A DNA stretch of 64,000 bases from Escherichia phage phi92: sequence record NC_023693.1. One strand, written 5' to 3'. The translations under genes were made by a program, and so were the position numbers. Positions 42,695 through 54,800 of the stretch are shown one piece after another. Position 1 is the first letter of the stretch; each line of letters opens with the position of its first letter. Below the pieces are notes generated by a model that did not search any database, was not told where the DNA came from, and worked only from the letters and a program-made list of their open reading frames with translations.

Positions 42695-42697
42695 GTG

Positions 42698-42716: not shown

Positions 42717-42726
42717 TTACACTCTG

Positions 42727-43329
42727 TTAGATATTGTAAACCTTTGTATGAGTTACTACACCATCTTCTACAAAATCAATACGTTCTTGATCCGTAACTA
42801 GTGCAGACAACACTTTAAATTTAATTTTTACACGTTCAAAAGCTGGTTGACCATCTTTAAGATAATTATGTTCAGTTGTCACTGTCTTGTTTACAAAATC
42901 AATTTTTGCTTTACCGTTTTCGCGTAGGTGGAATGTTTTTCCTGCTTTGTACACAATTTCAACATTACCTTCGAGAATAATTCCTTCAAAAAGTTCACCA
43001 TCTTCTTCATTTTCTTCACTTTTGAACAGACGACGAAACTCTTCCATATCAAGATAAACAACATCTTCAGGATGACTATCAGTAAGGTATGTCCTACCAT
43101 CCATTAACCCGAAATATTGCCAGACTGCAGAATAAACATCACAATTTGATCCTGCGGTTTCCTTTAGTTTAGTTCCACGGATTACTTCATAAACTTCAAA
43201 ATTAAAACCAGACTGCAAAGCATTAAACAGTACATCACTAACTTCTAAAGCATAATCTTCATTGTTGTCAATATCCACAAGAAAATTACCGCTACGAATA
43301 AGTTTTTGACCTACTAAAGTAATACCCAT
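42727..43329 (-). CDS. hypothetical protein
   Basis: 200 aa ORF with GAGGAG RBS, adjacent to terD. Confidence 0.4.
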   Translation of the reverse strand: MGITLVGQKLIRSGNFLVDIDNNEDYALEVSDVLFNALQSGFNFEVYEVIRGTKLKETAGSNCDVYSAVWQYFGLMDGRTYLTDSHPEDVVYLDMEEFRRLFKSEENEEDGELFEGIILEGNVEIVYKAGKTFHLRENGKAKIDFVNKTVTTEHNYLKDGQPAFERVKIKFKVLSALVTDQERIDFVEDGVVTHTKVYNI

Positions 43330-43348
43330 TGTTTTCTCCTCTTCTATT

Positions 43349-43372
43349 TAAAATATGCGCCCCGAAGGGCGC
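43349..43372 (-). terminator. intrinsic terminator downstream of terD
   Basis: GCGCCC-ttcg-GGGCGC followed on the - strand by ATATTTT. Confidence 0.5.
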
Positions 43373-43381
43373 TATGATTTA

Positions 43382-43978
43382 TTACTCGAACCAATCGTCG
43401 CCAGCGCCAAACGCTTTAACTACATCGTAAATATCAAGCCCAGCTTTACCCACACCATACGCTTTCAGTTTCCATTCGCTATCTTCTCGCACCAGGGAGG
43501 CAACGTGGCAAATGGTGTTACCTGCAAGTTCTGGAGCCAAGAAGTCAAAGTCCAGCAGTTCAACATTACGTTCATCATCGAAGATTTTAAGGAAACCTTC
43601 GGTAGCGTGACCAAGGCGTTTCTTACCCGTTTCGTCATCAATAGTAATTACGAATGCAATTTCCTGTGCTTCAGCAGAGATATTATCCAGTGTAACATCA
43701 ATCTGCTCCATTTGTCCTACACCGTCACGAACATCTTCACCTGCAAAAGTAGAACGTTCAGGATCAAATTTCTGTGCGTAGCATACCAGGTGGCGAGGAG
43801 ACAACAGTTCCGGCAGACCAGATGCATTGTGTCGGCAAATCAGAGCACTAACATCCAGATCCAGTTTTTCGTTAGATTTCCAAGAGAATTCCAGACGAAT
43901 GCGTTTCAGTGCTGGTGCGATCTTTTTCAGGGAAACTTTTTCGCTAGAACCTTTTTTCAGGGAAATTTTCTGAGTCAT
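43382..43978 (-). CDS. terD: TerD-family stress protein
   Basis: N-terminal ISLKKG...VSLKK, DLDVSA, FVITIDD and EWKLKAYG blocks match the TerD domain as I recall it; AAGGAG RBS. Confidence 0.6.
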   Translation of the reverse strand: MTQKISLKKGSSEKVSLKKIAPALKRIRLEFSWKSNEKLDLDVSALICRHNASGLPELLSPRHLVCYAQKFDPERSTFAGEDVRDGVGQMEQIDVTLDNISAEAQEIAFVITIDDETGKKRLGHATEGFLKIFDDERNVELLDFDFLAPELAGNTICHVASLVREDSEWKLKAYGVGKAGLDIYDVVKAFGAGDDWFE

Positions 43979-44015
43979 AATTTATTATCTCCTTTGTTGT
44001 TAATTTACGTTGTCT

Positions 44016-44043
44016 ATTTTACTAATCTTTTCTACAAAGTCAA
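44016..44043 (-). promoter_or_regulatory. sigma70-like promoter (-35 TTGACT, 16 nt spacer, -10 TAAAAT)
   Basis: On the - strand upstream of terD; TTGACT is the complement of 44038-44043 and TAAAAT of 44016-44021. Confidence 0.5.
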
Positions 44044-44050
44044 GCGTTTT

Positions 44051-44845
44051 TTACGCTTTTGCTCCGAATTTTTTAACCCACTCACCAAACTCTTCGGATA
44101 ACAGTTTATCGTAAAGTTCTTCGTCAGACAAGGACAAATCTGCAATACCGATAAAATCAACATTATCGTATTCTTTTGCCAAGTCTTTCAGGAATTTAAA
44201 GTTTGCATTACCTACACCAACCATAAACCAGTAAACAGGAGTGTTGCGGTGTTTGTTCAGCAAACTACGTACTGCTGAAGTATCCATGTTCTCCCCGTCA
44301 GTTTGGAAGAAAATCATTGCAGGAGTACGATCAACTTGTGCATCAGTATCTACAACCTGTTCTACAACAGTACGTGTAACTTCTACACGTTCTTTTTTAC
44401 CAGTTAGTTTAGCAAGGAAACCCTTAGCCGGAACTTCTTCATACTCAACGACTTCGCGTGTAATATTTTTCATAGGTACACTACCGAAGTATGTATCATA
44501 GATCTCTTGCATTACTGGGGCATAAGCTGTACCACCATTGATGCAAACATTAGACATACAAGAGCCGACATAATCATCATATACATCAGCCGTTGCGGGA
44601 GGCAGTTCAAAAGAAGAACTATTGAAAGCCCACATGTCAATCTGTGCATTATCATCAAATTTCATACCAAACGGCAGCAGCTTACCTACAAAATCACTAA
44701 CAGTGCCATCACGATACAGCTCACACATACTACCCGAAATATCTAAGGCGCTACCGACACGAAGAACAACATCGTTAATCTTTTTCTTACGCAGAGATAC
44801 GGTAAGAGTTTCTTGACGTTTTTTAAGACTGATTTTATTGGACAT
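44051..44845 (-). CDS. von Willebrand factor A domain protein (TerY-like)
   Basis: MIDAS motif DISGSM, downstream GGT and FQTDGE; TerD-like N-terminal ISLKK...VSLRK segment. Confidence 0.55.
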   Translation of the reverse strand: MSNKISLKKRQETLTVSLRKKKINDVVLRVGSALDISGSMCELYRDGTVSDFVGKLLPFGMKFDDNAQIDMWAFNSSSFELPPATADVYDDYVGSCMSNVCINGGTAYAPVMQEIYDTYFGSVPMKNITREVVEYEEVPAKGFLAKLTGKKERVEVTRTVVEQVVDTDAQVDRTPAMIFFQTDGENMDTSAVRSLLNKHRNTPVYWFMVGVGNANFKFLKDLAKEYDNVDFIGIADLSLSDEELYDKLLSEEFGEWVKKFGAKA

Positions 44846-44846
44846 A

Positions 44847-45116
44847 TTATTTCTCCTTTCTGAGTGTAATGTTAGTAACTTCTAAATCCACTTCTACCAT
44901 TTCTGTATCATATGAAATACAGCTAAGTTGACCTCTTTGTGAACCGTTCAGACACATTGCTTGGTTTGTATTAACCTTAATAAACACTAAGTTTCTGAAC
45001 GTATCTAAACCAGCATCTTGATAGGCAACATAATATACAAATGTATCACCTGCGTCAAGTTCTCCAAAACATTTAGGTTCATCTGATTCGTCGTCTTTGA
45101 TATTAAATTTAAGCAC
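44847..45116 (-). CDS. hypothetical protein
   Basis: 89 aa ORF. Confidence 0.4.
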   Translation of the reverse strand: MLKFNIKDDESDEPKCFGELDAGDTFVYYVAYQDAGLDTFRNLVFIKVNTNQAMCLNGSQRGQLSCISYDTEMVEVDLEVTNITLRKEK

Positions 45117-45672
45117 TATCTTCTCCTTTACCTACTTTCAAGCCTAAATAGAAAGCCTCTCTAGTGATTTTTTGCAACTCGTTTAAAGAGATAGTTACAA
45201 CTAAATCATCTTCAATTTCTAGTTTTGAGTCTTCTTCTGTCTCAATGCAAGTATTATGCACTTTGTGGTAAGGATTGTCAACACGTTTAAATTTATTATT
45301 TTCAGTGCTGAAGAAGCAATCTGGATCTTCTTCCCCATCACCCCAACCCTGGTTAGGATCTTCTTCAGATCTTTCTGTTGGGATCTCACCTGTAAAGTGT
45401 TCTTCTAATACCAGAGCAATCCCATCTCCAAGATCGGAAGAGAACATCAAATTACAAACTTCTTCCCAAGGCATAGACCACTTAAATCTTTTACGATTGC
45501 CATGTTTATCTTCTTCGTTAGAGAAAACACTACCATAGCTATCATAATTCCCATACATCTCTTCGACAACCTTACCACCTTTCAAAAGAAATAGGTAGCA
45601 AGGAGAGCCATCGAAAGAGGTAGAGAGAGCAGCATTACCAGACTCTTTGCACAAGAAACTAAAACACCCCAT
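45109..45672 (-). CDS. hypothetical protein
   Basis: 187 aa acidic ORF. Confidence 0.4.
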   Translation of the reverse strand: MGCFSFLCKESGNAALSTSFDGSPCYLFLLKGGKVVEEMYGNYDSYGSVFSNEEDKHGNRKRFKWSMPWEEVCNLMFSSDLGDGIALVLEEHFTGEIPTERSEEDPNQGWGDGEEDPDCFFSTENNKFKRVDNPYHKVHNTCIETEEDSKLEIEDDLVVTISLNELQKITREAFYLGLKVGKGEDSA

Positions 45673-45872
45673 TATACACCAGCCTTAAGATCAATTAAAG
45701 CCAAAGTTGTTTCAGAGTGTGTTTGCTCGTCTACAGGCGCAGTCATATGATAATACAAAAAATCTTCGGCATCATACCAATCTGATTCTTGACCTTGTTT
45801 CCAACCATCAATGAAAGCATCTTCCATAATGGTTTGCAATTCTTCACGAGTTAAGTGAATATCTTTACTCAT
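45672..45872 (-). CDS. hypothetical protein
   Basis: 66 aa ORF with start/stop coupled to neighbours. Confidence 0.35.
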   Translation of the reverse strand: MSKDIHLTREELQTIMEDAFIDGWKQGQESDWYDAEDFLYYHMTAPVDEQTHSETTLALIDLKAGV

Positions 45873-46105
45873 TACACATTCTCCTCTTTTACCAATTCCA
45901 TCGTTGAATTGTCAAAACCATCTTTAGAAGAATAGGTATAGACAGAACGTAGTTCTCGCAGGACAGTGAATACATTAGGATCATCTAACCAAGCATCCTG
46001 GAGGAGAACATAACGATCTTCATTGTCATACTGAACAGCAATCATAGAACCAGACAGTTTGTAAATTTTAATATTCATAATATATTTCTCCTTAAAGTAG
46101 ACCAC
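45872..46105 (-). CDS. hypothetical protein
   Basis: 77 aa ORF. Confidence 0.35.
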   Translation of the reverse strand: MVYFKEKYIMNIKIYKLSGSMIAVQYDNEDRYVLLQDAWLDDPNVFTVLRELRSVYTYSSKDGFDNSTMELVKEENV

Positions 46106-47195
46106 GTTTAACAGTTTGAATCATACCATCTTCAAGAGATTGCACTTCTTGAATGTAATCAATACGGGCAGCACGGGCTTCAGTGTTGATTCGGTTAGTT
46201 TCTTCCAACATTTTAACTAAGTTTTCTTGATCACGACGTAATGTTTCAATATCCAATACTTGACGATTAGCAAGTTGTGTAGCTTCAATTTGGTTTTGTG
46301 CAGCCAGATCACTACCCATTGCAATAGCAGCATTAAATTCATTCAGTACATTGTTCTGTGTATCGGCTGCTTTCTTCTGGCGTAGACTTTCAATATACAT
46401 AGAAAAGTTTGCAGAGTAAGCAGGGATAACATTATTCACAATATTACGGGCTGATCGCATCAAACTTGCAGATACTTTCTGCATACTTTGTACACGTGGC
46501 CCCATCTGAACACACAGTAAGCGTAAGGCTTTCAGGTCTGCAATACGAATTTCAAGCAGATCCATAGTATCACGAGTACGCTGACGCTCTTCTACGTCAT
46601 TTTCAGGCAGTGTATTAAGGCGAATTTCTTCTTTTTCATAAGTAGCTGTTAGAAGCTCTATATCTCTGTTTAAGCTAAGAGCATATTTTGCAATAGCCTC
46701 TTCTAAACGTTGCAGATATCGTAAAGAATCTTCTTCTTTTTTCAAGTCTGTTTGGAGTGTCTTTACCAAACCTTCAATACGGTTATTAATGGTGTCAAAT
46801 TCTCCAAACAAATCTTCTTTCATACCTAAAACTTTTTTAACTAGTTTACCTAAACCTTTAGATTGTTTAATAGAGTTAGGATCAAGTTGCTTTGCTTGCT
46901 TAATAAGTGCAGTTAAACGTTCACTCATTTCATCTCCCTGAGATGAACGCTGGTGTTTAAGCACTTCAGCATTAAGGTTACGAAGAGTAAGTCCTGCATC
47001 AGCACCAACCTGTTCAATCTCTTCACGCGACATTGGAGGCAGCATTTGTACAGGTCGTGCAACAGCAGGGGCATATACAGGGCTTGCATCCATAGCACTT
47101 GGAGCAAACAAAGACTTACTTTTTTCTGTTGTTGCCGTGAATACACTCATTTCAGACGGTTTGCTTTTTACGGCACTGATAAAAGGACTGGACAT
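46092..47195 (-). CDS. telA: TelA-like (toxic anion resistance) protein
   Basis: 367 aa, highly alpha-helical; C-terminal VLDIETLRRDQENLVKMLEETNRINTEARAARI resembles the conserved TelA/YceH C-terminal block; GGAGGA RBS. Confidence 0.5.
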   Translation of the reverse strand: MSSPFISAVKSKPSEMSVFTATTEKSKSLFAPSAMDASPVYAPAVARPVQMLPPMSREEIEQVGADAGLTLRNLNAEVLKHQRSSQGDEMSERLTALIKQAKQLDPNSIKQSKGLGKLVKKVLGMKEDLFGEFDTINNRIEGLVKTLQTDLKKEEDSLRYLQRLEEAIAKYALSLNRDIELLTATYEKEEIRLNTLPENDVEERQRTRDTMDLLEIRIADLKALRLLCVQMGPRVQSMQKVSASLMRSARNIVNNVIPAYSANFSMYIESLRQKKAADTQNNVLNEFNAAIAMGSDLAAQNQIEATQLANRQVLDIETLRRDQENLVKMLEETNRINTEARAARIDYIQEVQSLEDGMIQTVKRGLL

Positions 47196-47263
47196 TCAAT
47201 TTCCTCCATATTCTTTAGTAAATGGTGATACCTCTGTACCACCATCATAACACAAATTAAGTA

Positions 47264-48133
47264 TTAAACAAACATATCTAAATAATTTGTAGTAATAAAT
47301 GCTCCATCTGCTTCCAGATTAACATAACCAGTAGCATTAGTGGTTAAGAAATCCAGATCGAAGGACTCTTTAACACCCCGTACCTCAACACGAGAGATAT
47401 CGAATACAGGTAGTGTAACAGCCTCTTCGTGCAATACCGTACCTTTGTAGGTTGCCTTAATGATAAACTTGATATTACCTGTTCCAGCATCATATAAAAC
47501 ACTTTCAAACCCTTTGAGAGTATATTTATCACCAGAGGTGAAGTGCAAAGTTGCTTTGTTTACAGTACGGTTCTTACGAGGAGTTCCTTTCACACGTTTA
47601 TGATCACTACGTCTTTTGCATTTAGGAATGAATACAAACGATACACTCTCAAGAAAGGTATCAACATCAAGGATTTTAATATCCTCTGTTGCAGCAAATT
47701 TTGAAGTAGTTGCATCAAAATGCTTTTCCCTGCGATCATACATAAAGATATCAAACCGATCTTCTAAATCAAACCGATCTTCTAAATCAAACAAATTATG
47801 CAGTTTAATTTCAGAATGCTTGCACATTGCAGCAACCTTAAACTCTTCAAAACGTGGGTGTTCTACAAGTTCTTCAAGTTTTACACCAAAGACAGTATAT
47901 TGTTTCGAAGTTTTTTCTGGTGTTGGCATTACAGAAGCATAATCACCGATTGCGCTCTTAAAGCAAAATTGTTCTTGACCTGTATTTTTACCAACGAATT
48001 TACAGTATTCGTCATCGTGCATACTTTCCTGGGTAGTACCAACAAACTCAAAACCATCTTTATTCTTCTCAAGGATTTCTTGATTAAAGATCCAACCTTC
48101 CAGGCGATATACTTTACCAACTTCTAGTTTCAT
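47264..48133 (-). CDS. hypothetical protein (contains an 18 bp tandem duplication)
   Basis: 289 aa; internal DLEDRFDLEDRF encoded by the tandem repeat at 47751-47786. Confidence 0.4.
   Translation of the reverse strand: MKLEVGKVYRLEGWIFNQEILEKNKDGFEFVGTTQESMHDDEYCKFVGKNTGQEQFCFKSAIGDYASVMPTPEKTSKQYTVFGVKLEELVEHPRFEEFKVAAMCKHSEIKLHNLFDLEDRFDLEDRFDIFMYDRREKHFDATTSKFAATEDIKILDVDTFLESVSFVFIPKCKRRSDHKRVKGTPRKNRTVNKATLHFTSGDKYTLKGFESVLYDAGTGNIKFIIKATYKGTVLHEEAVTLPVFDISRVEVRGVKESFDLDFLTTNATGYVNLEADGAFITTNYLDMFV
47751..47786. repeat. perfect 18 bp tandem duplication (TCAAACCGATCTTCTAAA x2, plus a partial third copy)
   Basis: Positions 47751-47768 and 47769-47786 are identical; in frame within the CDS. 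Confidence 0.8.
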
Positions 48134-48168
48134 CTGTTTCTCCTTCTTATTTAATCTGTATTAAATTA

Positions 48169-48774
48169 TTAACGACGACGTGAGCTACTAAAACTACGTT
48201 TCGACGAAGAATAACTTTTCGAAGACTTACTATAAGAGCTAATAGGGCTTGAGTAAGACTTACGAGCAGAGTAATCACTATTCACTTTCGTTGTTGATGG
48301 GCGTGAATACGTTTGTACACTTTGCTGCTTAATTGTGTTTTGTTTAGTGGTTGTATATGTATTTCCTTGTTTATCATAAAAACTATGCTTTTGTGTTGTA
48401 TATGCTTTACTGTTAGTTGTAGGAGCAGCGTTGTTATTAATAATTGTTGTGTTGCTACCACCATCTCTATAACCGCCACCGCCACTATTACCACTCAACA
48501 TATGACCAAGAAGCATACCTGTAGCAAACTCACCTACACCAGAAGAACCACTGCCGCCTCCTTGCACAACAACTGTTGAAGGTTGTGCAGGTGCTGCTTG
48601 AACAACTTGAGGTGCAGGCTGATTTACATATTGTTCATCTACCATCTGATTTGGTGTTTGTTGGTAACGTTGATTTTGTACATTTTCAGAATCATCACAA
48701 CCTACCAGCAATGCACTACCTAAAACAACTGCAACAATAAAAGATTTAATGTTTTTCATTTGTAACCCTCTCAT
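48169..48774 (-). CDS. putative lipoprotein with low-complexity Ser/Tyr-rich C-terminus
   Basis: Signal peptide with lipobox-like LLVGC; Gly-rich stretch; C-terminal SYSSPISSYSKSSKSYSSSKRSFSSSRRR. Confidence 0.45.
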   Translation of the reverse strand: MRGLQMKNIKSFIVAVVLGSALLVGCDDSENVQNQRYQQTPNQMVDEQYVNQPAPQVVQAAPAQPSTVVVQGGGSGSSGVGEFATGMLLGHMLSGNSGGGGYRDGGSNTTIINNNAAPTTNSKAYTTQKHSFYDKQGNTYTTTKQNTIKQQSVQTYSRPSTTKVNSDYSARKSYSSPISSYSKSSKSYSSSKRSFSSSRRR

Positions 48775-48952
48775 TTAAAGTCTCAACACAATTTTTAAAA
48801 TCCCTAGAGAAACAATACATCTGTTCTCCGTTCCTGTTGATAGTAATTGTATGGTTATCAATATATGTTGTCAAGATAAAAATCAAACAAAACAACCCTA
48901 GAGCAAAACAAATATTTTCAAACAGAATCCAAAGAACACGTAAAACCACCAT
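48746..48952 (-). CDS. small membrane protein
   Basis: 68 aa with an N-terminal hydrophobic helix. Confidence 0.35.
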   Translation of the reverse strand: MVVLRVLWILFENICFALGLFCLIFILTTYIDNHTITINRNGEQMYCFSRDFKNCVETLNERVTNEKH

Positions 48953-48967
48953 CAGATCACCTCAACA

Positions 48968-48985
48968 AAGCCCCCGAAGGGGCTT
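48968..48985 (-). terminator. GC hairpin, possible terminator downstream of terC
   Basis: AAGCCCC-cgaa-GGGGCTT, weak T-tract. Confidence 0.4.
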
Positions 48986-48991
48986 AATGAA

Positions 48992-49969
48992 TTAAGCAAC
49001 AGTCTGGTCTTCTTTTTCAGGGAAGATTAAACTTGCAACAACACCCAACCCAAGAGTACCTAACACAATATACATACTGATCGTCGGATCAATGTGTGCT
49101 GGCAGGAAACTGGCTTTTGCGTGCAGAGTTTCTGCAAACGGGTGATACATCAGTTTTACACCCACAAACACCAGGACTACGATAACTGCTTTCTCCAGAT
49201 GAACCAAATATTTCAGTGCAACACTAAGGACAAAGAACAGAGCACGTAGACCTAAGATTGCACAGAGCATCGAAGAGAACACTAGCAGAGGTTCTTGTGT
49301 CACTGCAATCACTGCTGGAACAGAGTCTACTGCAAAGATTACGTCAACCATTTCCATTACAAACACACAAACCAGAGCCGGAGTTGCTACACGAACACCA
49401 TTTTTGATTGTGAAGAACTTCTCACCATCCATCTGATCAGATACAGGGAACAGCTTACGAACAATGCGAGTAGCCCAGTGTTTAGAGTAATCAACTTCTG
49501 CATCATTATCTCCAGCGAATACCATTTTAGCCGCACAGAAAAGGATGACAGCACCGAAGAAGATATTAACATACCAGCCCAAACTCAACAAGTAAGTACC
49601 TACTGCTACAAACACACCTCGGAAGACAATCGCACCTGCAATACCCCAAAGTAGAATCTTGTGCTGCAAGTGTGTGCTTTTAATACCAAAACTTGCGAAT
49701 ACTGCTACAAATACTACTAAGTTATCTACAGAAAGAGATTTCTCCAACACATACCCACTCAAGAACAAGCTCGCAAAATCAGCACCGTGTTGGAAGTATA
49801 CAAAACCATAGTAGGCTAATGATACCCCAATCCAGAAAATTGACCAGCCAATTGCAGATTTAAATGAAATTTCTTTGTTTTCTCTGTGTCCAAAGAAATC
49901 AATACAAATCGACAAGACTAAAATACCCACTAAAACAACCACATCAATAATTGGGAAACCCAGTTGCAT
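48992..49969 (-). CDS. terC: TerC-family integral membrane protein
   Basis: Multiple TM helices and the characteristic EKSLSVDNL segment. Confidence 0.6.
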   Translation of the reverse strand: MQLGFPIIDVVVLVGILVLSICIDFFGHRENKEISFKSAIGWSIFWIGVSLAYYGFVYFQHGADFASLFLSGYVLEKSLSVDNLVVFVAVFASFGIKSTHLQHKILLWGIAGAIVFRGVFVAVGTYLLSLGWYVNIFFGAVILFCAAKMVFAGDNDAEVDYSKHWATRIVRKLFPVSDQMDGEKFFTIKNGVRVATPALVCVFVMEMVDVIFAVDSVPAVIAVTQEPLLVFSSMLCAILGLRALFFVLSVALKYLVHLEKAVIVVLVFVGVKLMYHPFAETLHAKASFLPAHIDPTISMYIVLGTLGLGVVASLIFPEKEDQTVA

Positions 49970-50046
49970 TCTTTTCTCCTCTTTAATGCGGAGGACAATC
50001 CTCCGCTCTATGTCGTATACTATAAACTGTTTTTAAAGAAAGTCAA

Positions 50047-50295
50047 CTAGTTCAGTTCTGTAATTTTAAGTTTATCTTCTTTGTTAATGATAGGGAAAGC
50101 TACAGCATCACCTACATCATCAATAAAGCAAATAGCAAGACCACCTTCCACTTTGCTAACCTGACCATTAAAGGCGTGATACGGGGCAGGAACAATATCT
50201 CCATCTTCAAGGAGAATAGCCTCATAAACCTTACCAATAGTACAATCACGAGTGTTTTTAAATTTTTCAAGCACTTCAACATTTACTTTACGCAT
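50047..50295 (-). CDS. hypothetical protein
   Basis: 82 aa ORF. Confidence 0.4.
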   Translation of the reverse strand: MRKVNVEVLEKFKNTRDCTIGKVYEAILLEDGDIVPAPYHAFNGQVSKVEGGLAICFIDDVGDAVAFPIINKEDKLKITELN

Positions 50296-50309
50296 ATAAA
50301 GATCCTCTC

Positions 50310-50516
50310 TTATTTGTTAGATTGAAAGATACCACGAAGTACCGCAAGAATGAACGTCACACAGACTACACTCCAAAACGTTACAGGAACATGATGCCAG
50401 TCTAAACCGATAATGTCAATCATATAGTTGTATGCTAAAAGCAGTAGCCAACTAGGGATTAACACAATCAAGAACACAACAATAAAACAACCTAATACTG
50501 CTAAAACACCTGCCAT
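50310..50516 (-). CDS. small membrane protein
   Basis: 68 aa, two hydrophobic helices. Confidence 0.4.
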   Translation of the reverse strand: MAGVLAVLGCFIVVFLIVLIPSWLLLLAYNYMIDIIGLDWHHVPVTFWSVVCVTFILAVLRGIFQSNK

Positions 50517-50525
50517 ACTTTCTCC

Positions 50526-51242
50526 TTATTTCAGTTTGTAAACAATTACATTTAAACCTTTGTTCACTAGAGTTTCTTCGATCATAAGTTTTACAATATT
50601 CCAAGAACCTCCAGCCAAACCACAACCAAGCATTGGTAAACCTACAATTTTACCGCCTGAAGATACAACATCGTCTCCCATACTATCTAACGCATTGTAG
50701 ATAGCTTCATAATTCAGGTCACGCTTACCTTCCTCACGACGACTATAACCATATTGTCCATATAAATTATAAATTGTCAAATTGTTTTCTGTATACTTAG
50801 TAAACGTACCTAATTTTTTATAATCACCACGTTTAGTGGCACAATCTGCTTTAAACGCACCAGGCCACTTGCTTTTAATTTTTGGTGCAATACCACTACC
50901 CATAGTGCAAAAACAGTTACAGCAGTGTGCTATAGCGTCTATATCGCCTCTCTCGGCTGCTGCTAAAAGATCACCGTATACCTCAATGATACCTGCTGGA
51001 TAACTTGTTACAATTTCATCTTCCCAGTACATTTGCTCTACACCACCGATCAGTGCAAAGTTTTGTGTAATGCGATCATCAATATAATTAAGACCTGAAA
51101 CATACACAGCATATTCATCCTGTGCTGTAATACCTTGTACACGAATTCTTAAGACACCATCTTTATCTGTTGCTACACGCCCAAAATCTTTTTCTGTAAT
51201 ATTGGTGATAGGATCTCCGAAAGTCGTCACTTTATTAGACAT
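50526..51242 (-). CDS. macro domain protein (ADP-ribose binding/processing)
   Basis: IDAIAHCCNCFCTMGSGIA and LGCGLAGG resemble macro-domain Gly-rich loops; start taken at the internal ATG (MSNKV...) that overlaps the upstream stop (ATGTCTAA); the ORF track extends to 51359. Confidence 0.45.
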   Translation of the reverse strand: MSNKVTTFGDPITNITEKDFGRVATDKDGVLRIRVQGITAQDEYAVYVSGLNYIDDRITQNFALIGGVEQMYWEDEIVTSYPAGIIEVYGDLLAAAERGDIDAIAHCCNCFCTMGSGIAPKIKSKWPGAFKADCATKRGDYKKLGTFTKYTENNLTIYNLYGQYGYSRREEGKRDLNYEAIYNALDSMGDDVVSSGGKIVGLPMLGCGLAGGSWNIVKLMIEETLVNKGLNVIVYKLK

Positions 51243-52092
51243 AATAATCCCCTTTAACATTAGATTTGTTGATAATGTTGCTTTCAAAAAATTGACGCAG
51301 GAAATCAAAGTTCTCTTTGTATTTTTCAATATTATTGTAACCTTCTGCAAGGCAACCAAAGAACAGTTGTTCTACATAATACAAAGGAAGTTGTGAAAGT
51401 GCAATTTTAAAATCAACTTCGCTTTGACTCATTAGATACTTAATAGGACGAACCAAACATTTAGCATCAGTTTCTTGCTTAATCATTTTAATAAAAGCTG
51501 CCAGGTTATTGATATAGTTGAAGTTAAGTGCAGCTTCGGTGTTGGCTTCTGTACCTTCATACTTTGCAAAGTACAGGAAAAACGTATCGTTTTCAACACC
51601 TTCTTTGTCTAAAATTTCAATAAGTTTTTCTTCGTGTGTACCTGTAATATTAACATCATCAATGAAAATCAGATTTTTATCGCCCCAAAAATCACGATTG
51701 ATAGAGAAAGTATCACCATCGATCAAAGCCTTACGATCTTCTTTGCTAAGAAATCCATAATCATTGATATAGCTCACTTTACGATGAACGATATCCCACT
51801 CTACTGCTTTACCTCCTTTGATAGAGATTAGGTAGTTGAGGTGATCTACAAAATGTTCAGATAACACTGTAGCTGCATTTTTAACATAGTTATATGGAGA
51901 TGGAATAACAACAAAACTTTCATTTACCAGTCGTTCTTCATATTTAGAAAAGAAACTTTCAGCCAGAATGCGTCCCATTCTTTTTGCTGCCTGGTTGCTG
52001 CCAAACTTTAGTTTGGAATAATCTGCAATGTTAAATTTTGCTTCCTTCAGGTTAGTAAAAGTATTAGCAAAATGTTGAATTTGATTACGCAT
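51235..52092 (-). CDS. phosphoribosyltransferase (type I PRTase fold)
   Basis: NLIFIDDVNITGTHEEKL matches the PRPP-binding motif (hydrophobic strand, DD, then TG-T). Confidence 0.5.
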   Translation of the reverse strand: MRNQIQHFANTFTNLKEAKFNIADYSKLKFGSNQAAKRMGRILAESFFSKYEERLVNESFVVIPSPYNYVKNAATVLSEHFVDHLNYLISIKGGKAVEWDIVHRKVSYINDYGFLSKEDRKALIDGDTFSINRDFWGDKNLIFIDDVNITGTHEEKLIEILDKEGVENDTFFLYFAKYEGTEANTEAALNFNYINNLAAFIKMIKQETDAKCLVRPIKYLMSQSEVDFKIALSQLPLYYVEQLFFGCLAEGYNNIEKYKENFDFLRQFFESNIINKSNVKGDYYV

Positions 52093-52741
52093 TAATAAGT
52101 TCCTCTTTTTTAAGTTTAGCCAACAAGTCTTCTGGATTAATAATATGACAGAACTTCATCCCTATGTCAACAGCTTTTCCATCATAAATCAAACTATCTC
52201 CAACGTGTAAAATCTCCTCTGGTGCGAGATCAAACGTTACCATTTCATCAAAAGAGAGTTTAAAAAACCTAGGATCTGGTTTACACAAGCAAAACTCATC
52301 AGAAAAATGCATAAAGTCAAATGGTAATTTTGTCAAGCCAGAATATACAGCTAAGAAACTACCAGGTACAAAATTAGTATTGCTCTTAATACTCAAAGAG
52401 TAGGTTGAACTTAGCTCTTCCAACTTCTTGCAAAGTTCAGGATTCAAGGTTGGAGGATGTTTTATAAACATTGCTAAACAGTCTCTTTTTAACCCATCCA
52501 CTTTATCAAGATCAATGTTCAAACGAGTAGAAAGTGTTACCCAAGCATCCTTAGACGTTCCACAAATGCCTTTTTCTGCTTTTAAATCCAAGAGAGTTTT
52601 TACCTCTTTATATACGGTAGCTGCTTCTACCTCAGAACAAGAGGCATACTCGGCAATAACCTTGTTGCGCTCTTCTGCATACAAAGGGTTAGCAGTAATA
52701 AGAGTATTCCATACATCAAAAGAAATATGCTTAACAGTCAT
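52085..52741 (-). CDS. HAD-superfamily hydrolase
   Basis: N-terminal HISFDVWNTL (motif I-like) and C-terminal HVGDSLIYDGKA (motif IV-like); start taken at ATG 52741 with GGAGGA RBS (the ORF track starts at TTG 52759). Confidence 0.45.
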   Translation of the reverse strand: MTVKHISFDVWNTLITANPLYAEERNKVIAEYASCSEVEAATVYKEVKTLLDLKAEKGICGTSKDAWVTLSTRLNIDLDKVDGLKRDCLAMFIKHPPTLNPELCKKLEELSSTYSLSIKSNTNFVPGSFLAVYSGLTKLPFDFMHFSDEFCLCKPDPRFFKLSFDEMVTFDLAPEEILHVGDSLIYDGKAVDIGMKFCHIINPEDLLAKLKKEELINA

Positions 52742-52910
52742 TTTTAATCCTCCGTCCAAAAGAATATCATCTGCTTAATTTTATTGATTTCTTGATGTAG
52801 TAACTTTCCAGCATGTGATTGATCTTTAATATTGACAGCAAGAATTTCAAGTTCCGTTAGTTTTTCTTGGATAGCTTTATATTCATCATCTGTAAGCATT
52901 TTCTTCCCCT

Positions 52911-53102
52911 TTAGAATGGTAATCTTTGTATGTCACTTATCCCCACACCAAGAAGTCTAGCAATATCCTTATCTAAAAGCAACTCTTTTTGTTCTAAAAT
53001 GTTAATCAGATCTCCTAATACTTCTTTAATGTCACGATCATTTTTAGCAACGTGACCACCTGCCGTATCAACTTTATCTTTAAAAACAAAGTAATGATCC
53101 AT
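52911..53102 (-). CDS. hypothetical protein
   Basis: Start taken at the second ATG (MDHYF...), which has GGAGGG RBS; the ORF track extends to 53114. Confidence 0.35.
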   Translation of the reverse strand: MDHYFVFKDKVDTAGGHVAKNDRDIKEVLGDLINILEQKELLLDKDIARLLGVGISDIQRLPF

Positions 53103-53111
53103 AATACCCTC

Positions 53112-53142
53112 CATATAAATAAAGGAGGCTTTCGCCTCCTTT
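53112..53142 (-). terminator. intrinsic terminator downstream of the AAA+ ATPase gene
   Basis: AAAGGAGGC-gaaa-GCCTCCTTT followed on the - strand by ATTTATAT. Confidence 0.5.
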
Positions 53143-53148
53143 TATCAC

Positions 53149-54309
53149 TTAGTAAGAACGAGCACCAAACACATACTCTGTGTAGTTTTTACGTTCTTTG
53201 TTTTTAATAACAACTTCAATGTTGTTGCCTTTATCATCGGTGAACACAAAGTGATAACCGTCACCACCCATTGTACGGATGTGTTTTTCATCATACGTCA
53301 GCAAGATACGGTCTACACCCCAGTAGTAGTCACCTTCTTCATCTTTGTCTTCTACTGTAACGACCCCTTCCATTTCAGGAAGATGTTCTTCTCCTAGCTT
53401 ATGGTCTACAGCTACAACATAACGATTACCGCTAAACAAACCCTGTGCTGTCATACCGTCAATATCGGTATCTGCCGAAACATCTCCTGTACGATCTACA
53501 CCGTTGACTTTCAGAAGTTTAACTTCTTTTGCAGCATAGCGGTGTTCAGTAATACTGATACCCATTAATGCAAGTGCATCAGAGAATTTGTCATTAGGGT
53601 AACGGTTAAGTTCTTCTACTAATGACTGAACAATATCAAAGTTCAAGTCCACGGAAAGATTATAAAGCGTTTCAAAATCTGGTAAAAAGGCTTTGTTCTC
53701 CAGATTTTTAGCCAGATAGTCATCCATAGTAGCTTTAGGTAGTTTCTTATAGCTAAAGCTGTAGAAAATACGGCTAGGACGATTACGCAAAAATTCTGAT
53801 ACATAACCATCGTTTTTAGTCAATACAAACAGCTTGTCGTAGCCACCTACACCATCCAGCAGGGTAAGCAAGCCATCCTGTGCATCTTTTTCAGCATACA
53901 GTTTATCAAATTCATCGATCATAATCATCACAGGTTGTGTGATTTTAGACATAAAATTGATAAAGCCTTCGCCATTAAAAGCACTACCGATAGGAATAGT
54001 AGGAATACCCATTTCACGAAGAGCAGAAGACAGCATTTTAGCTTGCAAAGTTTTACCGCTACCCTTCGTACCCTCAAGGAGAACACCTGTGTTTTTACCT
54101 TTGCGGCTAAGGAACGTCTTGATAATACGTTCTGATTTATCATCAGTATCACCGTATGTTACTGAAGGGACTTCCATATCGTTTTTAGGATACAGGAAGA
54201 ACTCACCACTTTGAGTAACACCTACACCAAAAGTTCCTGCTGGAATTTCTTCAATATCTGTACCAGACTTCTGACGCAGGAAGATTTGATTGCCGAATAC
54301 TGTAAACAT
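53149..54309 (-). CDS. AAA+ ATPase
   Basis: Walker A GTKGSGKT and Walker B VMIMIDEFD. Confidence 0.55.
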   Translation of the reverse strand: MFTVFGNQIFLRQKSGTDIEEIPAGTFGVGVTQSGEFFLYPKNDMEVPSVTYGDTDDKSERIIKTFLSRKGKNTGVLLEGTKGSGKTLQAKMLSSALREMGIPTIPIGSAFNGEGFINFMSKITQPVMIMIDEFDKLYAEKDAQDGLLTLLDGVGGYDKLFVLTKNDGYVSEFLRNRPSRIFYSFSYKKLPKATMDDYLAKNLENKAFLPDFETLYNLSVDLNFDIVQSLVEELNRYPNDKFSDALALMGISITEHRYAAKEVKLLKVNGVDRTGDVSADTDIDGMTAQGLFSGNRYVVAVDHKLGEEHLPEMEGVVTVEDKDEEGDYYWGVDRILLTYDEKHIRTMGGDGYHFVFTDDKGNNIEVVIKNKERKNYTEYVFGARSY

Positions 54310-54329
54310 AGTTTTCTCCTCTATTTAAT

Positions 54330-54800
54330 TTAGTCAGATTCCCAAATGTTGTCTTTCTTAATCCACATTCGTTGATTATCTGAACCTCTATAACGTTTCG
54401 TTGTTGGTTGATTCATATCATACTTACCATCTATCACTATGTCAACCAGTTTTTTAATTTTTTCTGGAATTTCCTCAAAAAGATATCCTGTATATAAGAC
54501 AATATCTTTTTTGTTTCCAAAACAATCTCTTACCTTCTCAAGAACATACTCTACAGTGTCAATGTTCTCTTTGTCAAGAGGTTCACCACCTAAAACTGTT
54601 AATCCTTTAATGAAAGGTCGAGATAAATCTTTCAAGATAAGATCTAATGTTTCAGTAGTGAACTCTTGTCCGTAGTTATACGACCAGGCTTTCTGGTTAA
54701 AGCAGCCACGGCAACCGTGGCTACAACCGCTCACCCACAAAGAGCATCTTACACCGTCACCGTTGAGCATGTCAACAGGTTCATATCCGGCGTAATTCAA
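54330..54800 (-). CDS. nrdG: anaerobic ribonucleoside-triphosphate reductase activating protein (radical SAM)
   Basis: Cys cluster CSHGCRGC (CxxxCxxC), 156 aa, immediately downstream of nrdD with ATGA overlap. Confidence 0.7.
   Translation of the reverse strand: MNYAGYEPVDMLNGDGVRCSLWVSGCSHGCRGCFNQKAWSYNYGQEFTTETLDLILKDLSRPFIKGLTVLGGEPLDKENIDTVEYVLEKVRDCFGNKKDIVLYTGYLFEEIPEKIKKLVDIVIDGKYDMNQPTTKRYRGSDNQRMWIKKDNIWESD

What the first reader, a model, noticed from the sequence alone, without database searches (positions are those of the whole stretch)
43382..54309. Phage-borne Ter/TelA-like cassette fused to a small-molecule enzyme set
Within about 11 kb, in one orientation on the - strand, are TerD, a vWA (TerY-like) protein, TelA-like, a lipoprotein, TerC, then macro domain, type I PRTase, HAD hydrolase and an AAA+ ATPase, interleaved with small uncharacterised ORFs and served by its own sigma70-like promoters. 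Ter loci in bacteria have been linked by comparative genomics to PRTase/HAD-type biosynthetic modules proposed to make a nucleoside-like metabolite. Finding the whole assemblage inside a phage replication module, with an added macro domain, suggests a phage-encoded membrane-stress or nucleotide-signal manipulation system. It could serve host takeover, superinfection exclusion, or counter-defence against nucleotide-depleting or ADP-ribosylating immunity.
Basis: partly seen in the sequence, partly recalled or inferred. Interest (0 to 1): 0.85.

Follow-up and report, generated by a model that had tools for sequence, protein, structure and literature searches.

The report
Known phage Ter membrane-stress gene cassette
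This stretch of a phi92-like E. coli phage carries a stripped-down copy of the bacterial "tellurite resistance" (Ter) membrane-stress system plus two enzymes predicted to make a nucleoside-like molecule; the genes are real, but the cassette is already annotated in dozens of sequenced phages and discussed in print, and nobody has tested what it does.

Summary
On the minus strand of 43382-52759 lie TerD, a TerF-type vWA protein, TelA, an inner-membrane lipoprotein, TerC, a macro-domain protein, a ComF-like PRTase (PRTase_3) and a HAD hydrolase.

The window is a Justusliebigvirus (phi92-like) phage. The 11-kb region is 98% identical to VEcB, alia, Paula and EmilieFrey/Bas61, and 52 phage records hold at least 80% of it. 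It is not a host chimera.

What I add:
- HAD+PRTase_3 is a strict two-gene unit (25 of 25 loci). It sits inside true bacterial Ter clusters in two Bacteroidota genomes. It also occurs without Ter genes in Rhizobium and Caulobacter phages and on rhizobial replicons.
- TerD, vWA, TelA and TerC form a separable core.
- The macro gene is homologous to T4 Tk.4/AdfM, a recently shown anti-DarTG2 factor, so it is probably an independent counter-defence gene.
- The AAA+ ATPase is an unrelated neighbour.

The most likely role is conditioning the inner membrane and excluding superinfecting phages. This is inferred from bacterial TerC/TerD phenotypes and is untested.

Ter systems with PRTase and HAD enzymes in phages were described by Iyer et al. 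in 2021. Novelty: already known. Interest: about 0.3.

The parts
43357..43372 (-). Terminator-like GC hairpin just downstream of TerD; the end of the cassette
   Evidence: GCGCCC-TTCG-GGGCGC followed by ATATTTT.
43382..43978 (-). TerD-domain protein (198 aa)
   Evidence: Pfam TerD E 5e-28. PDB 2kxt (Klebsiella TerD) E 9e-15. 27-28% identical to E. coli TerD/TerE. The Ca2+-loop is degenerate: GEDVRDG-VGQME against GDNRTGEGDGDDE.
44016..44043 (-). Promoter-like site in the gap between the vWA gene and TerD
   Evidence: TTGACT-16-TAAAAT, 10 of 12 matches. This is a consensus match only.
44051..44845 (-). TerF-type vWA protein (264 aa)
   Evidence: Pfam vWA-TerF-like E 7e-39. MIDAS motif DISGS. 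24.5% identical to the C-terminal vWA of E. coli TerF. Homologues sit next to TelA or TerD in KP13-16, a metagenomic phage (L007), phiPsa381 and Caulobacter phage C2.
44847..46105 (-). Four small ORFs of unknown function (89, 187, 66 and 77 aa)
   Evidence: PHROG families of unknown function. Three of the four (89, 187 and 66 aa) are conserved in phAPEC8; the 77-aa ORF has no match there. None was detected in the more distant Ter-carrying phages. The 187-aa protein belongs to a widespread phage family seen in non-Ter contexts. They are probably not Ter-specific.
46092..47195 (-). TelA-like protein (367 aa)
   Evidence: Pfam TelA E 3e-34. PHROG 'tellurite resistance'. 244 phage records carry a relative. 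The AF2 model shows a long helical hairpin, with no specific structural match.
47264..48133 (-). 289-aa protein of unknown function
   Evidence: No Pfam hit. PHROG of unknown function. Only the C-terminal part is conserved in phAPEC8.
48169..48774 (-). Predicted inner-membrane lipoprotein (about 196 aa from Met6)
   Evidence: The N-terminus reads MKNIKSFIVAVVLGSALLVGC-DD: a lipobox LVGC with Asp at +2. Asp at +2 is the inner-membrane retention rule in E. coli (own knowledge). Sequence. Conserved in phAPEC8.
48746..48952 (-). 68-aa protein with one membrane helix
   Evidence: Hydropathy peak at residues 9-27. Weak Pfam DUF6693 hit. Conserved in phAPEC8.
48992..49969 (-). TerC integral membrane protein (325 aa, about 9 membrane helices)
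   Evidence: Pfam TerC E 1e-38. TIGR03718 323.8 bits, above its cut-off. 46% identical to ter-operon TerC against 37% to K-12 Alx.
49988..50046 (-). Promoter-like site and 5'-UTR hairpin upstream of TerC
   Evidence: TTGACT-16-TATAGT at 50046-50019, then the hairpin GCGGAGGA-TTG-TCCTCCGC at 50006-49988. Both are kept in phAPEC8, with two compensatory pair changes in the stem. The phAPEC8 record annotates a host-dependent promoter at this position.
50047..50516 (-). Two small ORFs: 82 aa, and 68 aa with two membrane helices
   Evidence: PHROGs of unknown function. Hydropathy. The 68-aa protein is conserved in phAPEC8.
50526..51242 (-). Macro-domain protein (238 aa): macro domain at residues about 85-238, plus an N-terminal extension of about 85 aa
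   Evidence: Pfam Macro E 3e-7. DarG macro part E 1e-13 in PADLOC and NCBIfam. PDB 5e3b, 2fg1 and TARG1. 30% identical to T2 Tk.4, E 1e-17. 49% identical to phAPEC8 gp050, which lacks the extension. Its start overlaps the PRTase stop by 8 nt.
51235..52092 (-). PRTase_3 (ComF-like type I phosphoribosyltransferase, 285 aa)
52085..52759 (-). HAD-superfamily hydrolase (218 aa from the ATG at 52741)
   Evidence: Pfam Hydrolase 26.1 bits against a cut-off of 26.4. PDB 2om6 E 5e-8. Motifs I-IV present. Motif I is D-V-W-N-T, with Trp in place of Asp+2, in all 7 homologues aligned. It lies directly upstream of PRTase_3 in 25 of 25 loci.
52744..53114 (-). Two small leader ORFs of the HAD-PRTase-macro operon (51 and 67 aa)
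   Evidence: PHROGs of unknown function. The 67-aa ORF is conserved in phAPEC8 and in L013.
53121..53142 (-). Terminator-like hairpin separating the AAA+ gene from the cassette
   Evidence: AAAGGAGGC-GAAA-GCCTCCTTT followed by ATTTAT. Paula annotates terminators at this position.
53149..54309 (-). AAA+ ATPase (386 aa): a neighbour, not part of the cassette
   Evidence: Pfam AAA E 6e-6. PHROG 2376 'ATPase'. Absent from the phAPEC8 locus. In ESCO13 the 43%-identical homologue lies about 16 kb from the PRTase_3 gene and about 20 kb from TelA. 301 phage records carry the family, many from Gram-positive hosts.

Best explanation
Window 43.4-53.1 kb holds two adjacent leftward gene blocks of a phi92-like virulent phage. 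Together they form a minimal, phage-adapted Ter system.

Block 1 (TerC to TerD) encodes the Ter core: the membrane protein TerC, an inner-membrane lipoprotein and a small membrane protein, the coiled-coil protein TelA, a TerF-type vWA protein and TerD. A host-type promoter with a conserved 5' hairpin precedes it.

Block 2 encodes the HAD-PRTase_3 pair. The prediction is that it couples a base to PRPP and then processes the nucleotide to a nucleoside-like small molecule. In bacterial Ter clusters this molecule is thought to be the ligand or signal of the system.

Inferred mechanism: soon after infection the phage installs TerC/TerD/TelA/vWA at the inner membrane of the host. This changes membrane and metal-ion (Mn2+/Ca2+) behaviour, so the infected cell resists further insults that act through the inner membrane. 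These insults are above all DNA entry by superinfecting phages, and pore-forming colicins. They are the phenotypes that TerC and TerD give bacteria.

The macro gene is co-transcribed with block 2 but is a functionally separate Tk.4/AdfM-type ADP-ribosyl-glycohydrolase. It most likely removes DarT2-type ADP-ribose from phage DNA. The AAA+ ATPase is not part of the cassette.

Shown here: gene identities, module structure, conservation and distribution. Inferred: the metabolite, the timing of expression and the exclusion phenotype.
For: Domain identities.

The cassette is a stable part of the phage lineage:
- 52 phage records hold at least 80% of the region, and 62 match at 95-99% identity.
- Gene order is kept in Phapecoctavirus phAPEC8 at 49-80% protein identity.

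The same four-gene core (TelA, vWA, TerC, TerD) recurs as a block in unrelated phages:
- Caulobacter phage C2.
- Otagovirus phiPsa381.
- A metagenomic phage, L007.

HAD+PRTase_3 lies inside bona fide bacterial Ter clusters (L026 and L027).

Phage TerC is the ter-operon type: 46% identity to TerC against 37% to Alx.

Bacterial phenotypes:
- TerC-TerD is reported as the minimal functional unit.
- Deleting terC in K. pneumoniae gives larger plaques and lowers Zn and Mn resistance (PMC12054061).

Other support:
- Iyer et al. proposed the same exclusion role for phage Ter systems (PMC7824862).
- Four envelope proteins cluster around TerC.
- The promoter and 5' hairpin before TerC are conserved, with compensatory changes in the stem.

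Macro gene:
- Homologous to Tk.4.
- T4 Tk.4/AdfM is needed against DarTG2.
- Close relatives Bas60-62 carry a NADAR enzyme that counters DarTG1 (PMC11825919). A thymidine-specific partner enzyme would be a natural complement.
Against: - No experiment exists on any phage Ter gene. The Otagovirus paper states that their function during infection is unknown.
- The HAD-PRTase pair occurs without any Ter gene within 10 kb in the Rhizobium phage, CcrColossus and metagenomic phage loci examined and on rhizobial replicons. Otagoviruses have the Ter core without the pair. The two blocks may therefore not work together.
- The HAD lacks the Asp+2 general acid; motif I is D-x-W-x-T. A simple nucleotide-phosphatase step is therefore uncertain.
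- The TerD Ca2+-binding loop is degenerate in this lineage.
- The phage has no TerB, TerA/Z, TerY-PP2C-kinase or ATP-grasp genes.
- PADLOC returned no hit for the Ter proteins.
- The total number of promoter-like sites is at chance level.
- Early expression is assumed, not measured.
Confidence: 0.45

Rival explanations
1. Counter-defence by membrane protection. The phage Ter core keeps the inner membrane intact and energised against host abortive-infection effectors that depolarise or perforate it. The infection then runs to completion. Other phages are not the target.
For: The same membrane-directed parts list applies. Bacterial Ter gives colicin resistance. The cassette shares an operon region with a likely counter-defence gene, the macro/AdfM-like gene. 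In Otagovirus the Ter core lies beside a macro gene and NAD-salvage-type genes, annotated as nicotinamide PRTase and ribose-phosphate pyrophosphokinase.
Against: There is no direct evidence. Accessory genes of many kinds cluster in early regions of large phages, so adjacency is weak evidence. No known defence system has been shown to be blocked by Ter proteins.
Confidence: 0.2
2. HAD, PRTase_3 and macro form a nucleotide or ADP-ribose salvage or detoxification pathway of their own, unrelated to the Ter core. An example would be re-making nucleotides after nucleosidase-type or NAD-consuming immunity. Its position beside the Ter genes would then be historical.
For: - The HAD-PRTase pair is autonomous. 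It is the only unit shared by 7 rhizobial loci, and it stands alone in the Rhizobium phage, CcrColossus and metagenomic phage loci examined.
- The gene after PRTase_3 is often another nucleotide-derivative enzyme: macro here, Nudix in Rhizobium phage TM30, and a weak dual-specificity-phosphatase-like hit in L008.
- The macro start overlaps the PRTase stop.
Against: - The macro-PRTase_3 adjacency is confined to Stephanstirmvirinae.
- The macro family is in 2971 phage records, against 155 for PRTase_3.
- PRTase_3 has the ComF-like type I fold, not the NAMPT type.
- A phosphatase acting after a PRTase would undo salvage.
- In bacteria the pair sits inside Ter clusters.
Confidence: 0.15
3. Metal homeostasis for phage enzymes. 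TerC acts as a Mn2+ (or Zn2+) exporter or metallochaperone, and TerD/TelA as regulators, to tune metal supply in the infected cell. The nearby ribonucleotide reductases or periplasmic enzymes could be the beneficiaries.
For: - TerC scores above the cut-off for the TerC/Alx metal-homeostasis family.
- Alx is a Mn2+ exporter, and TerC-family proteins act as metal chaperones (titles of PMC10197570 and PMC12096827; alx annotation).
- K. pneumoniae terC affects Zn and Mn resistance.
- The cassette lies beside nrdD/nrdG.
Against: - No Mn2+ riboswitch or any other Rfam element precedes the phage TerC.
- This does not explain TelA, the vWA protein or the HAD-PRTase pair.
- The neighbouring reductase is class III, a glycyl-radical enzyme with an Fe-S activase, not a Mn enzyme.
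Confidence: 0.12
4. The cassette gives the host tellurite or xenobiotic resistance, acting as a 'moron' that benefits the carrier cell.
For: GenBank and PHROG labels read 'tellurite resistance' and 'moron, auxiliary metabolic gene'. Iyer et al. mention xenobiotic resistance during pseudolysogeny as a side possibility.
Against: - Relatives are virulent myoviruses of about 145-150 kb.
- I saw no prophage copy. No complete E. coli genome carries the segment.
- TerB, TerA and TerZ are missing.
- The Otagovirus authors judged tellurium resistance unlikely for the same reason.
Confidence: 0.03
5. The region is host DNA or an assembly chimera.
For: None was found.
Against: GC content is uniform. The region is present in full in 52 independent phage records. 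It is absent from 5426 E. coli genomes, apart from a 200-bp terC stretch at 69% identity.
Confidence: 0.01

Closest known systems
Phage-encoded Ter systems described by Iyer, Anantharaman, Krishnan, Burroughs and Aravind 2021 (Viruses 13:63, PMC7824862, section 3.4.10)
   Same: The components match: TerD, TerC, TerF-type vWA and TelA, with PRTase and HAD 'signal biosynthesis' enzymes in the fullest version (Acinetobacter phage ME3). The abbreviated four-gene operon is in Caulobacter jumbo phages. The paper states that 'certain other related smaller tailed phages' carry it too, and proposes competition with superinfecting phages.
   Different: That paper centres on jumbo phages and, in the passage I read, does not name the phi92-like phages. 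I did not read its supplement or the rest of the text. Here the genome is about 147 kb. The Ter core and the HAD-PRTase pair sit in two adjacent units with a macro gene between them, and TerD has a degenerate Ca2+ loop.
The same locus in published Justusliebigvirus and Phapecoctavirus genomes: phi92 gp172-gp190, Paula, EmilieFrey/Bas61, VEcB, alia, phAPEC8
   Same: DNA identity is 98%, with an identical gene order. Existing annotations already read 'tellurite resistance', 'TerC', 'VWA domain-containing protein', 'putative macrodomain protein', 'putative phosphoribosyltransferase' and 'putative HAD-like superfamily protein'.
   Different: There is nothing substantive in the cassette itself. This window's nrdD, just upstream, carries a group I intron that Paula and EmilieFrey lack.
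Classical terZABCDEF island of enterobacterial plasmids and E. coli O157 (R478 type)
   Same: TerC, TerD and the vWA domain of TerF have homologues in the phage, at 46%, 27-28% and 24.5% identity. The island also carries an HAD hydrolase and PRTase-domain proteins. It has documented phage-inhibition and colicin-resistance phenotypes.
   Different: The island has TerZ, TerA, TerB, TerE, TerXYW, ATP-grasp, HpcH-aldolase and StiP-like genes, which the phage lacks. The island has no TelA. Its HAD and PRTase proteins belong to different families: neither jackhmmer nor tblastn linked them to the phage proteins.
Bacteroidota Ter clusters carrying HAD+PRTase_3 (Tannerella MAG L026; Bacteroidetes MAG L027)
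   Same: They have the same HAD-PRTase_3 pair in the same order, with overlapping genes, at 31-32% identity to the phage PRTase. TerD paralogues lie next to it in both, and TerC as well in L027.
   Different: The bacterial clusters add three TerY-type vWA genes, PP2C, a Ser/Thr kinase, a P-type cation ATPase or OmpA-like proteins. No TelA was detected within the flanks.
T4 Tk.4 / AdfM (anti-DarT factor, macrodomain)
   Same: The macro domain is homologous: 30% identity over 139 residues, E 1e-17. Both have Gln in the L-Y-x-Q motif (LYGQ here, LYTQ in Tk.4) and a similar G-x-G-x-x-x-G glycine loop (GCGLAGG here, GAGIGKG in Tk.4). T4 needs tk.4 to grow on a DarTG2 host.
   Different: The window protein has an extra N-terminal region of about 85 aa, which is absent from Tk.4 and from phAPEC8 gp050. 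Activity against DarT2 is untested for this protein.

Membership tests
Ter system (TerD/TerC/TelA/TerF hub, in the sense of Anantharaman, Iyer and Aravind 2012 as summarised in PMC7824862) | A TerD-domain protein | tested here: met
   Pfam TerD E 5e-28 over 176 of 187 profile positions. PDB 2kxt E 9e-15.
Ter system | A TerC integral membrane protein | tested here: met
   Pfam E 1e-38. TIGR03718 323.8 bits against a cut-off of 246.4. 46% identity to ter-operon TerC.
Ter system | A TelA-like coiled-coil protein | tested here: met
   Pfam TelA E 3e-34, covering 13-330 of 332 profile positions.
Ter system | A TerF/TerY-type vWA protein with a MIDAS motif | tested here: met
   Pfam vWA-TerF-like E 7e-39. 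D-I-S-G-S is present.
Ter system | A linked PRTase and HAD 'metabolite' module | tested here: met
   PRTase_3 E 6e-41, with the HAD directly upstream. The same pair lies inside the bacterial Ter clusters L026 and L027. Caveat: the pair also occurs without Ter genes.
Ter system | The canonical TerD Ca2+-binding loop, GDN(R/L)TG(E/A)GDGDDE | tested here: inconclusive
   The phage has GEDVRDG-VGQME, so several acidic ligands are replaced. Other phage TerDs (L007, L010, L011) keep the motif.
Ter system | TerB, TerA/TerZ, the TerY-PP2C-kinase triad and ATP-grasp enzymes (parts of the full bacterial systems) | tested here: not met
   None of the 20 ORFs in the region hits these families in Pfam. This is a reduced system, not the full one.
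Ter system | Phenotypes: phage inhibition, colicin resistance, tellurite resistance | not testable with these tools
   These need plaque, colicin and MIC assays.
AdfM / Tk.4-type anti-DarTG2 macrodomain | A macro fold of the TARG1/DarG clade | tested here: met
   PDB 5e3b 3e-15, 2fg1 4e-15, TARG1 4e-10, DarG 5m31 1e-3. PADLOC DarG 1e-13.
AdfM / Tk.4-type anti-DarTG2 macrodomain | Sequence homology to T-even Tk.4 | tested here: met
   BLASTP against T2 Tk.4: 30% identity, E 1e-17. tblastn hits to tk.4 genes of T2, IME08 and Aeromonas phage 31.
AdfM / Tk.4-type anti-DarTG2 macrodomain | Protects the phage from DarTG2, or removes ADP-ribose from thymidine in DNA | not testable with these tools
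   Shown only for T4 tk.4.
DarG antitoxin (type II TA) | A full-length DarG with a C-terminal DarT-binding domain and an adjacent darT gene | tested here: not met
   Only the macro part matches (profile positions 4-147 of 338), at 48.9 bits against a cut-off of 250. No DarT-like ORF is adjacent.
Phage NAD+ reconstitution pathways (NAMPT/NMNAT type or ADPR-PP type) | A NAMPT-type (type II) PRTase with an adenylyltransferase or a PRPP-synthetase-like enzyme | tested here: not met
   PRTase_3 has a type I, ComF-like fold. No such partners were found in the region.
HAD phosphatases | Motif I is D-x-D-x-T, with Asp+2 as the general acid | tested here: not met
   Motif I is D-V-W-N-T in the window protein and in all six homologues aligned. 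The PDB chain 2om6, of unknown function, has the same motif. Superfamily membership holds; plain phosphomonoesterase chemistry is uncertain.

The most novel reading that the evidence does not exclude
The HAD(D-x-W-x-T)/PRTase_3 pair is an autonomous, horizontally mobile two-enzyme module. It is found with or without Ter genes in at least four unrelated phage groups, on rhizobial replicons and in Bacteroidota Ter clusters. Its product would be a so far unidentified ribosylated small molecule, and the HAD would not be a simple nucleotide phosphatase. In this phage the molecule would switch on the co-encoded Ter core from inside the infected cell, or act on its own against a host defence. That would make the phage a tractable entry point to the chemistry of the Ter system, which has been unresolved for decades.
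Probability: 0.2. Interest if true: 0.65.

Novelty: already known. Interest (0 to 1): 0.3.

Why it matters
The biochemical function of the Ter system has been open since the 1990s. It is widespread in pathogens, gives phage and colicin resistance, and is used diagnostically through tellurite resistance.

A virulent E. coli K-12 phage that carries only the minimal hub (TerC, TerD, TelA, vWA) plus the predicted metabolite enzymes is a convenient place to test that function. A 98%-identical relative, EmilieFrey/Bas61, belongs to the BASEL collection and was isolated on K-12.

The value lies in this testability, not in discovery. The locus and the idea are already in the databases and the literature.

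The practical corrections from this work are three:
- Treat the macro gene as a probable anti-DarTG2 factor.
- Drop the AAA+ ATPase from the system.
- Treat HAD-PRTase_3 as a unit that can be studied on its own.

Tried and rejected
- **A riboswitch before TerC.** I looked for a Mn2+ riboswitch or any other known RNA. No Rfam match was found in 42500-55000, even at E of 1 or less.
- **PADLOC.** Apart from the DarG-like macro hit there were only marginal matches (AAA386 to mad8, E 1.6e-3; the 289-aa ORF to Cas12g, E 3e-3), which I dismissed. The Ter proteins returned nothing.
- **A link from the phage HAD and PRTase to the enterobacterial ter island.** tblastn against 72,556 plasmids found only rhizobial and one Hymenobacter plasmid. 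jackhmmer did not connect them to the island's own HAD or PRTase proteins.
- **The 187-aa ORF as a hidden Ter component.** It belongs to a large phage family seen in unrelated contexts, so I rejected it.
- **The AAA+ ATPase as a cassette member.** Rejected.
- **Literature.** I found no experimental work on phage Ter genes or on PRTase_3/PF15610. One search was wasted on generic tellurite papers. The founding paper, Anantharaman et al. 2012, is not held in the library. Its content is cited only as relayed by PMC7824862, PMC8386662 and PMC12054061.
- **Host-derived chimera.** Rejected.

Full report
**What the window is.** The 10.9-kb region matches 93 phage records by megablast. Of these, 52 cover at least 80% of it and 62 are 95-99% identical. 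The best matches are Escherichia phages VEcB, alia, ALITA, Eryne, Paula and others of the genus Justusliebigvirus (phi92-like, Stephanstirmvirinae). In phage Paula the genes correspond to phi92 gp172-gp190. GC content is flat at 0.35-0.40 across the window, and GC skew is steadily negative over the minus-strand half. None of 5426 complete E. coli genomes holds the TelA-TerC segment; only a 200-bp piece of terC aligns, at 69% identity. The region is therefore a stable, lineage-wide part of a virulent phage genome, not a chimera.

**Checking the observation.**
- TerD, E 5e-28.
- vWA-TerF-like, E 7e-39.
- TelA, E 3e-34.
- TerC, E 1e-38.
- Macro, E 3e-7.
- PRTase_3 'ComF-like', E 6e-41.
- HAD, 26.1 bits against a Pfam cut-off of 26.4.
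- AAA, E 6e-6.

Independent support:
- TerD matches the Klebsiella TerD structure 2kxt at 9e-15.
- TerC passes the curated cut-off of TIGR03718.
- The macro domain matches PDB 5e3b, 2fg1 and human TARG1.
- The HAD matches PDB 2om6 and shows motifs I-IV.
- The 'lipoprotein' has the lipobox L-V-G-C followed by Asp. By the E. coli +2 rule (own knowledge) this predicts retention in the inner membrane.
- A one-helix and a two-helix mini-protein flank TerC.

Eleven ORFs have no Pfam family. All of them fall into PHROG families of unknown function.

**Transcription units.** Terminator-like hairpins lie at 53142-53121, between the AAA+ gene and the next ORF, and at 43372-43357, after TerD. The only real intergenic gaps hold near-consensus sigma70-type sites. 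One is TTGACT-16-TATAGT before TerC, followed by an 8-bp hairpin in the 5' leader. The other is TTGACT-16-TAAAAT before TerD. The TerC promoter and hairpin are kept in phAPEC8 with two compensatory base-pair changes, and that record annotates a host-dependent promoter there. Overall, however, promoter-like matches are no more frequent than in shuffled sequence. 'Own promoters' is therefore plausible for two sites and unproven in general. The genes from the 67-aa ORF through HAD, PRTase and macro to the 82-aa ORF are tightly packed. HAD/PRTase and PRTase/macro each overlap by 8 nt.

**Which genes belong together.** I compared the locus with 30 other loci.
- In phAPEC8, the sister genus, the order NrdD-NrdG-(small ORFs)-HAD-PRTase-macro-TerC-...-TelA-...-vWA-...-TerD is kept, but the AAA+ gene is absent.
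- The AAA+ family occurs in 301 phage records, including phages of Lactococcus, Bacillus and Staphylococcus and crAss-like phages. In ESCO13 its homologue lies about 16 kb from the PRTase_3 gene and about 20 kb from TelA. It is a neighbour, not a component.
- PRTase_3 occurs in 155 phage records: Stephanstirmvirinae, Rhizobium Kleczkowskaviridae, and Caulobacter and Brevundimonas jumbo phages.
- In every one of the 25 loci with PRTase_3 that I examined, the HAD gene lies directly upstream.
- Ter genes are adjacent in Stephanstirmvirinae, Klebsiella phage KP13-16 and a metagenomic phage. They are not adjacent in Rhizobium phage TM30, CcrColossus or another metagenomic phage.
- In Caulobacter phage C2, TelA, vWA, TerC and TerD form a compact block of their own. 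Otagoviruses have the same core without PRTase_3.
- A scan of 100,044 species genomes found the pair mainly in Rhizobium, Sinorhizobium and Ensifer, where HAD and PRTase are the only genes shared by all seven loci compared.
- The same scan found the pair in two Bacteroidota MAGs, where it is embedded in textbook Ter clusters. The Tannerella cluster has TerD x3, three TerY-type vWA genes (one with TerY_C), PP2C, a Ser/Thr kinase, HAD, PRTase_3 and a P-type cation ATPase. The second has TerD x2, HAD, PRTase_3 and TerC.

The link between Ter loci and a PRTase/HAD module is therefore real and reproducible. The two are also separable modules.

**Relation to the classical ter island.** Phage TerC is 46% identical to plasmid TerC (287 bits) and 37% identical to chromosomal Alx (169 bits). 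TerD is 27-28% identical to TerD/TerE, and the vWA protein 24.5% to the C-terminal half of TerF. The island's own HAD and PRTase-domain proteins are not detectably related to the phage pair. The phage lacks TerB, TerA/Z, TerXYW, ATP-grasp and aldolase genes. The phage TerD loop that binds Ca2+ in Klebsiella TerD has lost several acidic residues in this lineage, but not in other phage TerDs.

**The macro gene.** Residues 85-238 form a TARG1/SCO6735/BT1257-type macro domain. The DarG models of PADLOC and NCBIfam match only over their macro part. Relatives are present in 2971 phage records, among them the tk.4 genes of T-even phages. The direct comparison with T2 Tk.4 gives 30% identity and E 1e-17. 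A 2025 preprint shows that T4 tk.4 (renamed adfM) is the single gene needed for growth on a DarTG2 host, and that its knockout sensitises T4 (10.1101/2025.11.20.689424). Bas60-62, which include the close relative Bas61/EmilieFrey, carry a NADAR enzyme that neutralises DarTG1 but not DarTG2 (PMC11825919). A thymidine-specific macrodomain would complete that pair. Macro lies next to PRTase_3 only in Stephanstirmvirinae. In Otagovirus it follows a nicotinamide-PRTase gene, 2.6 kb from TelA. I therefore read it as an independent counter-defence gene that happens to share an operon. Its N-terminal extension of about 85 residues, absent from phAPEC8 gp050 and from Tk.4, is unexplained.

[quoted passage not shown] TerC-TerD is reported as the minimal unit. 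A K. pneumoniae terC deletion gives larger plaques and lower Zn/Mn resistance (PMC12054061). TerC relatives are Mn2+ exporters or metal chaperones (titles; alx annotation). The phage carries exactly the hub TerC+TerD, plus TelA, a vWA protein, an inner-membrane lipoprotein and small membrane proteins, behind a host-type promoter. The best-supported reading is the one already proposed by Iyer et al. (PMC7824862). The phage installs a Ter complex in the inner membrane of its host to block later-arriving phages and other membrane-directed insults. HAD-PRTase_3 would supply a nucleoside-like ligand.

The gene identities and the module structure are shown. The ligand, the timing and the phenotype are inferred. 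Three points weaken the metabolite step and the coupling: the HAD has Trp instead of the Asp+2 general acid in all homologues, the pair often occurs without Ter genes, and the TerD Ca2+ loop is degenerate. Rival readings cannot be excluded by computation and are scored in the report sections: protection against membrane-active abortive-infection effectors, an autonomous nucleotide or ADP-ribose pathway, and metal supply.

**Novelty and score.** The locus is annotated with these very functions in deposited genomes. EmilieFrey reads 'putative phosphoribosyltransferase', 'putative macrodomain protein' and 'putative HAD-like superfamily protein'. Other records read 'tellurite resistance', 'TerC' and 'VWA'. 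Phage Ter clusters have been noted for phiKp34, the phiPsa374-like phages and jumbo phages. I found no experimental work on any of them, and nothing on PRTase_3 in phages. This is a correct and careful observation of something already known in kind and in instance. The remaining value is that the Ter question is testable in a K-12 phage.

What this analysis adds:
- The strict HAD-PRTase_3 pairing and its autonomy.
- Its presence in Bacteroidota Ter clusters.
- The unusual HAD motif.
- Removal of the AAA+ gene from the system.
- Reassignment of the macro gene.

Interest: 0.3.

Noticed in passing
window 54797-56875 (- strand); intron at 55789-56063: The anaerobic ribonucleotide reductase gene nrdD is split into two ORFs: 56009-56875 (NRDD profile 1-263) and 54797-55768 (profile 263-562). 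Between them Rfam finds a full-length group I intron, at 70.6 bits against a gathering score of 50, E 1e-17. Paula and EmilieFrey annotate nrdD as one uninterrupted gene, so the intron is variably present in this genus.
   Followed up: partly
window 52085-52759 (HAD), residues 14-18; also L002, L004-L008: Motif I of the HAD is D-V-W-N-T. The Asp+2 general acid of HAD phosphatases is replaced by Trp in all seven phage homologues aligned, and in PDB 2om6 (function unknown). This may mean the enzyme is not a plain nucleotide phosphatase.
   Followed up: partly
window 49988-50046; L002 about 10552-10625: The promoter-like site before TerC is followed by an 8-bp hairpin in the 5' leader. The hairpin is kept in phAPEC8 with two compensatory base-pair changes, which suggests a selected RNA structure (mRNA stability or regulation). 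No Rfam family matches it.
   Followed up: partly
window 45109-45672: The N-terminal 135 residues or so of this 187-aa protein belong to a large, well conserved (50-65% identity) phage protein family with no Pfam domain. The family is found in marine and gut phage contigs in replication-region contexts with no Ter genes.
   Followed up: partly
window 50526-51242, residues 1-85: The macro protein carries an N-terminal extension of about 85 residues. It is absent from the Phapecoctavirus orthologue (157 aa) and from T-even Tk.4 (155 aa). Its function is unknown.
   Followed up: no
window 43382-43978, residues about 80-95: The TerD Ca2+-binding loop is degenerate in Justusliebigvirus and Phapecoctavirus (GEDVRDG-VGQME). 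It is canonical in the TerDs of a metagenomic phage, of Otagovirus and of Caulobacter phage C2.
   Followed up: partly
L010 (Pseudomonas phage phiPsa381) 1-10500: In Otagovirus the Ter core lies within a few kb of a macro gene and of genes annotated as nicotinamide phosphoribosyltransferase and ribose-phosphate pyrophosphokinase (NAD-salvage-type genes). This is a second case of Ter genes beside ADP-ribose/NAD enzymes.
   Followed up: no
L018 10904-11581; L004 6304-6867; L008 9800-10312: The gene just after PRTase_3 varies by lineage: ClpP-like protease in Sinorhizobium/Ensifer, Nudix in Rhizobium phage TM30, a weak dual-specificity-phosphatase-like hit in a metagenomic phage, and macro in Stephanstirmvirinae.
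   Followed up: no
phage records MG065639, MG065645, MG065656, MG065689: Four records labelled 'Campylobacter phage' (host C. jejuni) are 97.8% identical to this E. coli phage region over its full length. The host label looks doubtful.
   Followed up: no
window 53149-54309: Justusliebigvirus records show two places matching this AAA+ ATPase, so a second, paralogous copy exists elsewhere in these genomes.
   Followed up: no
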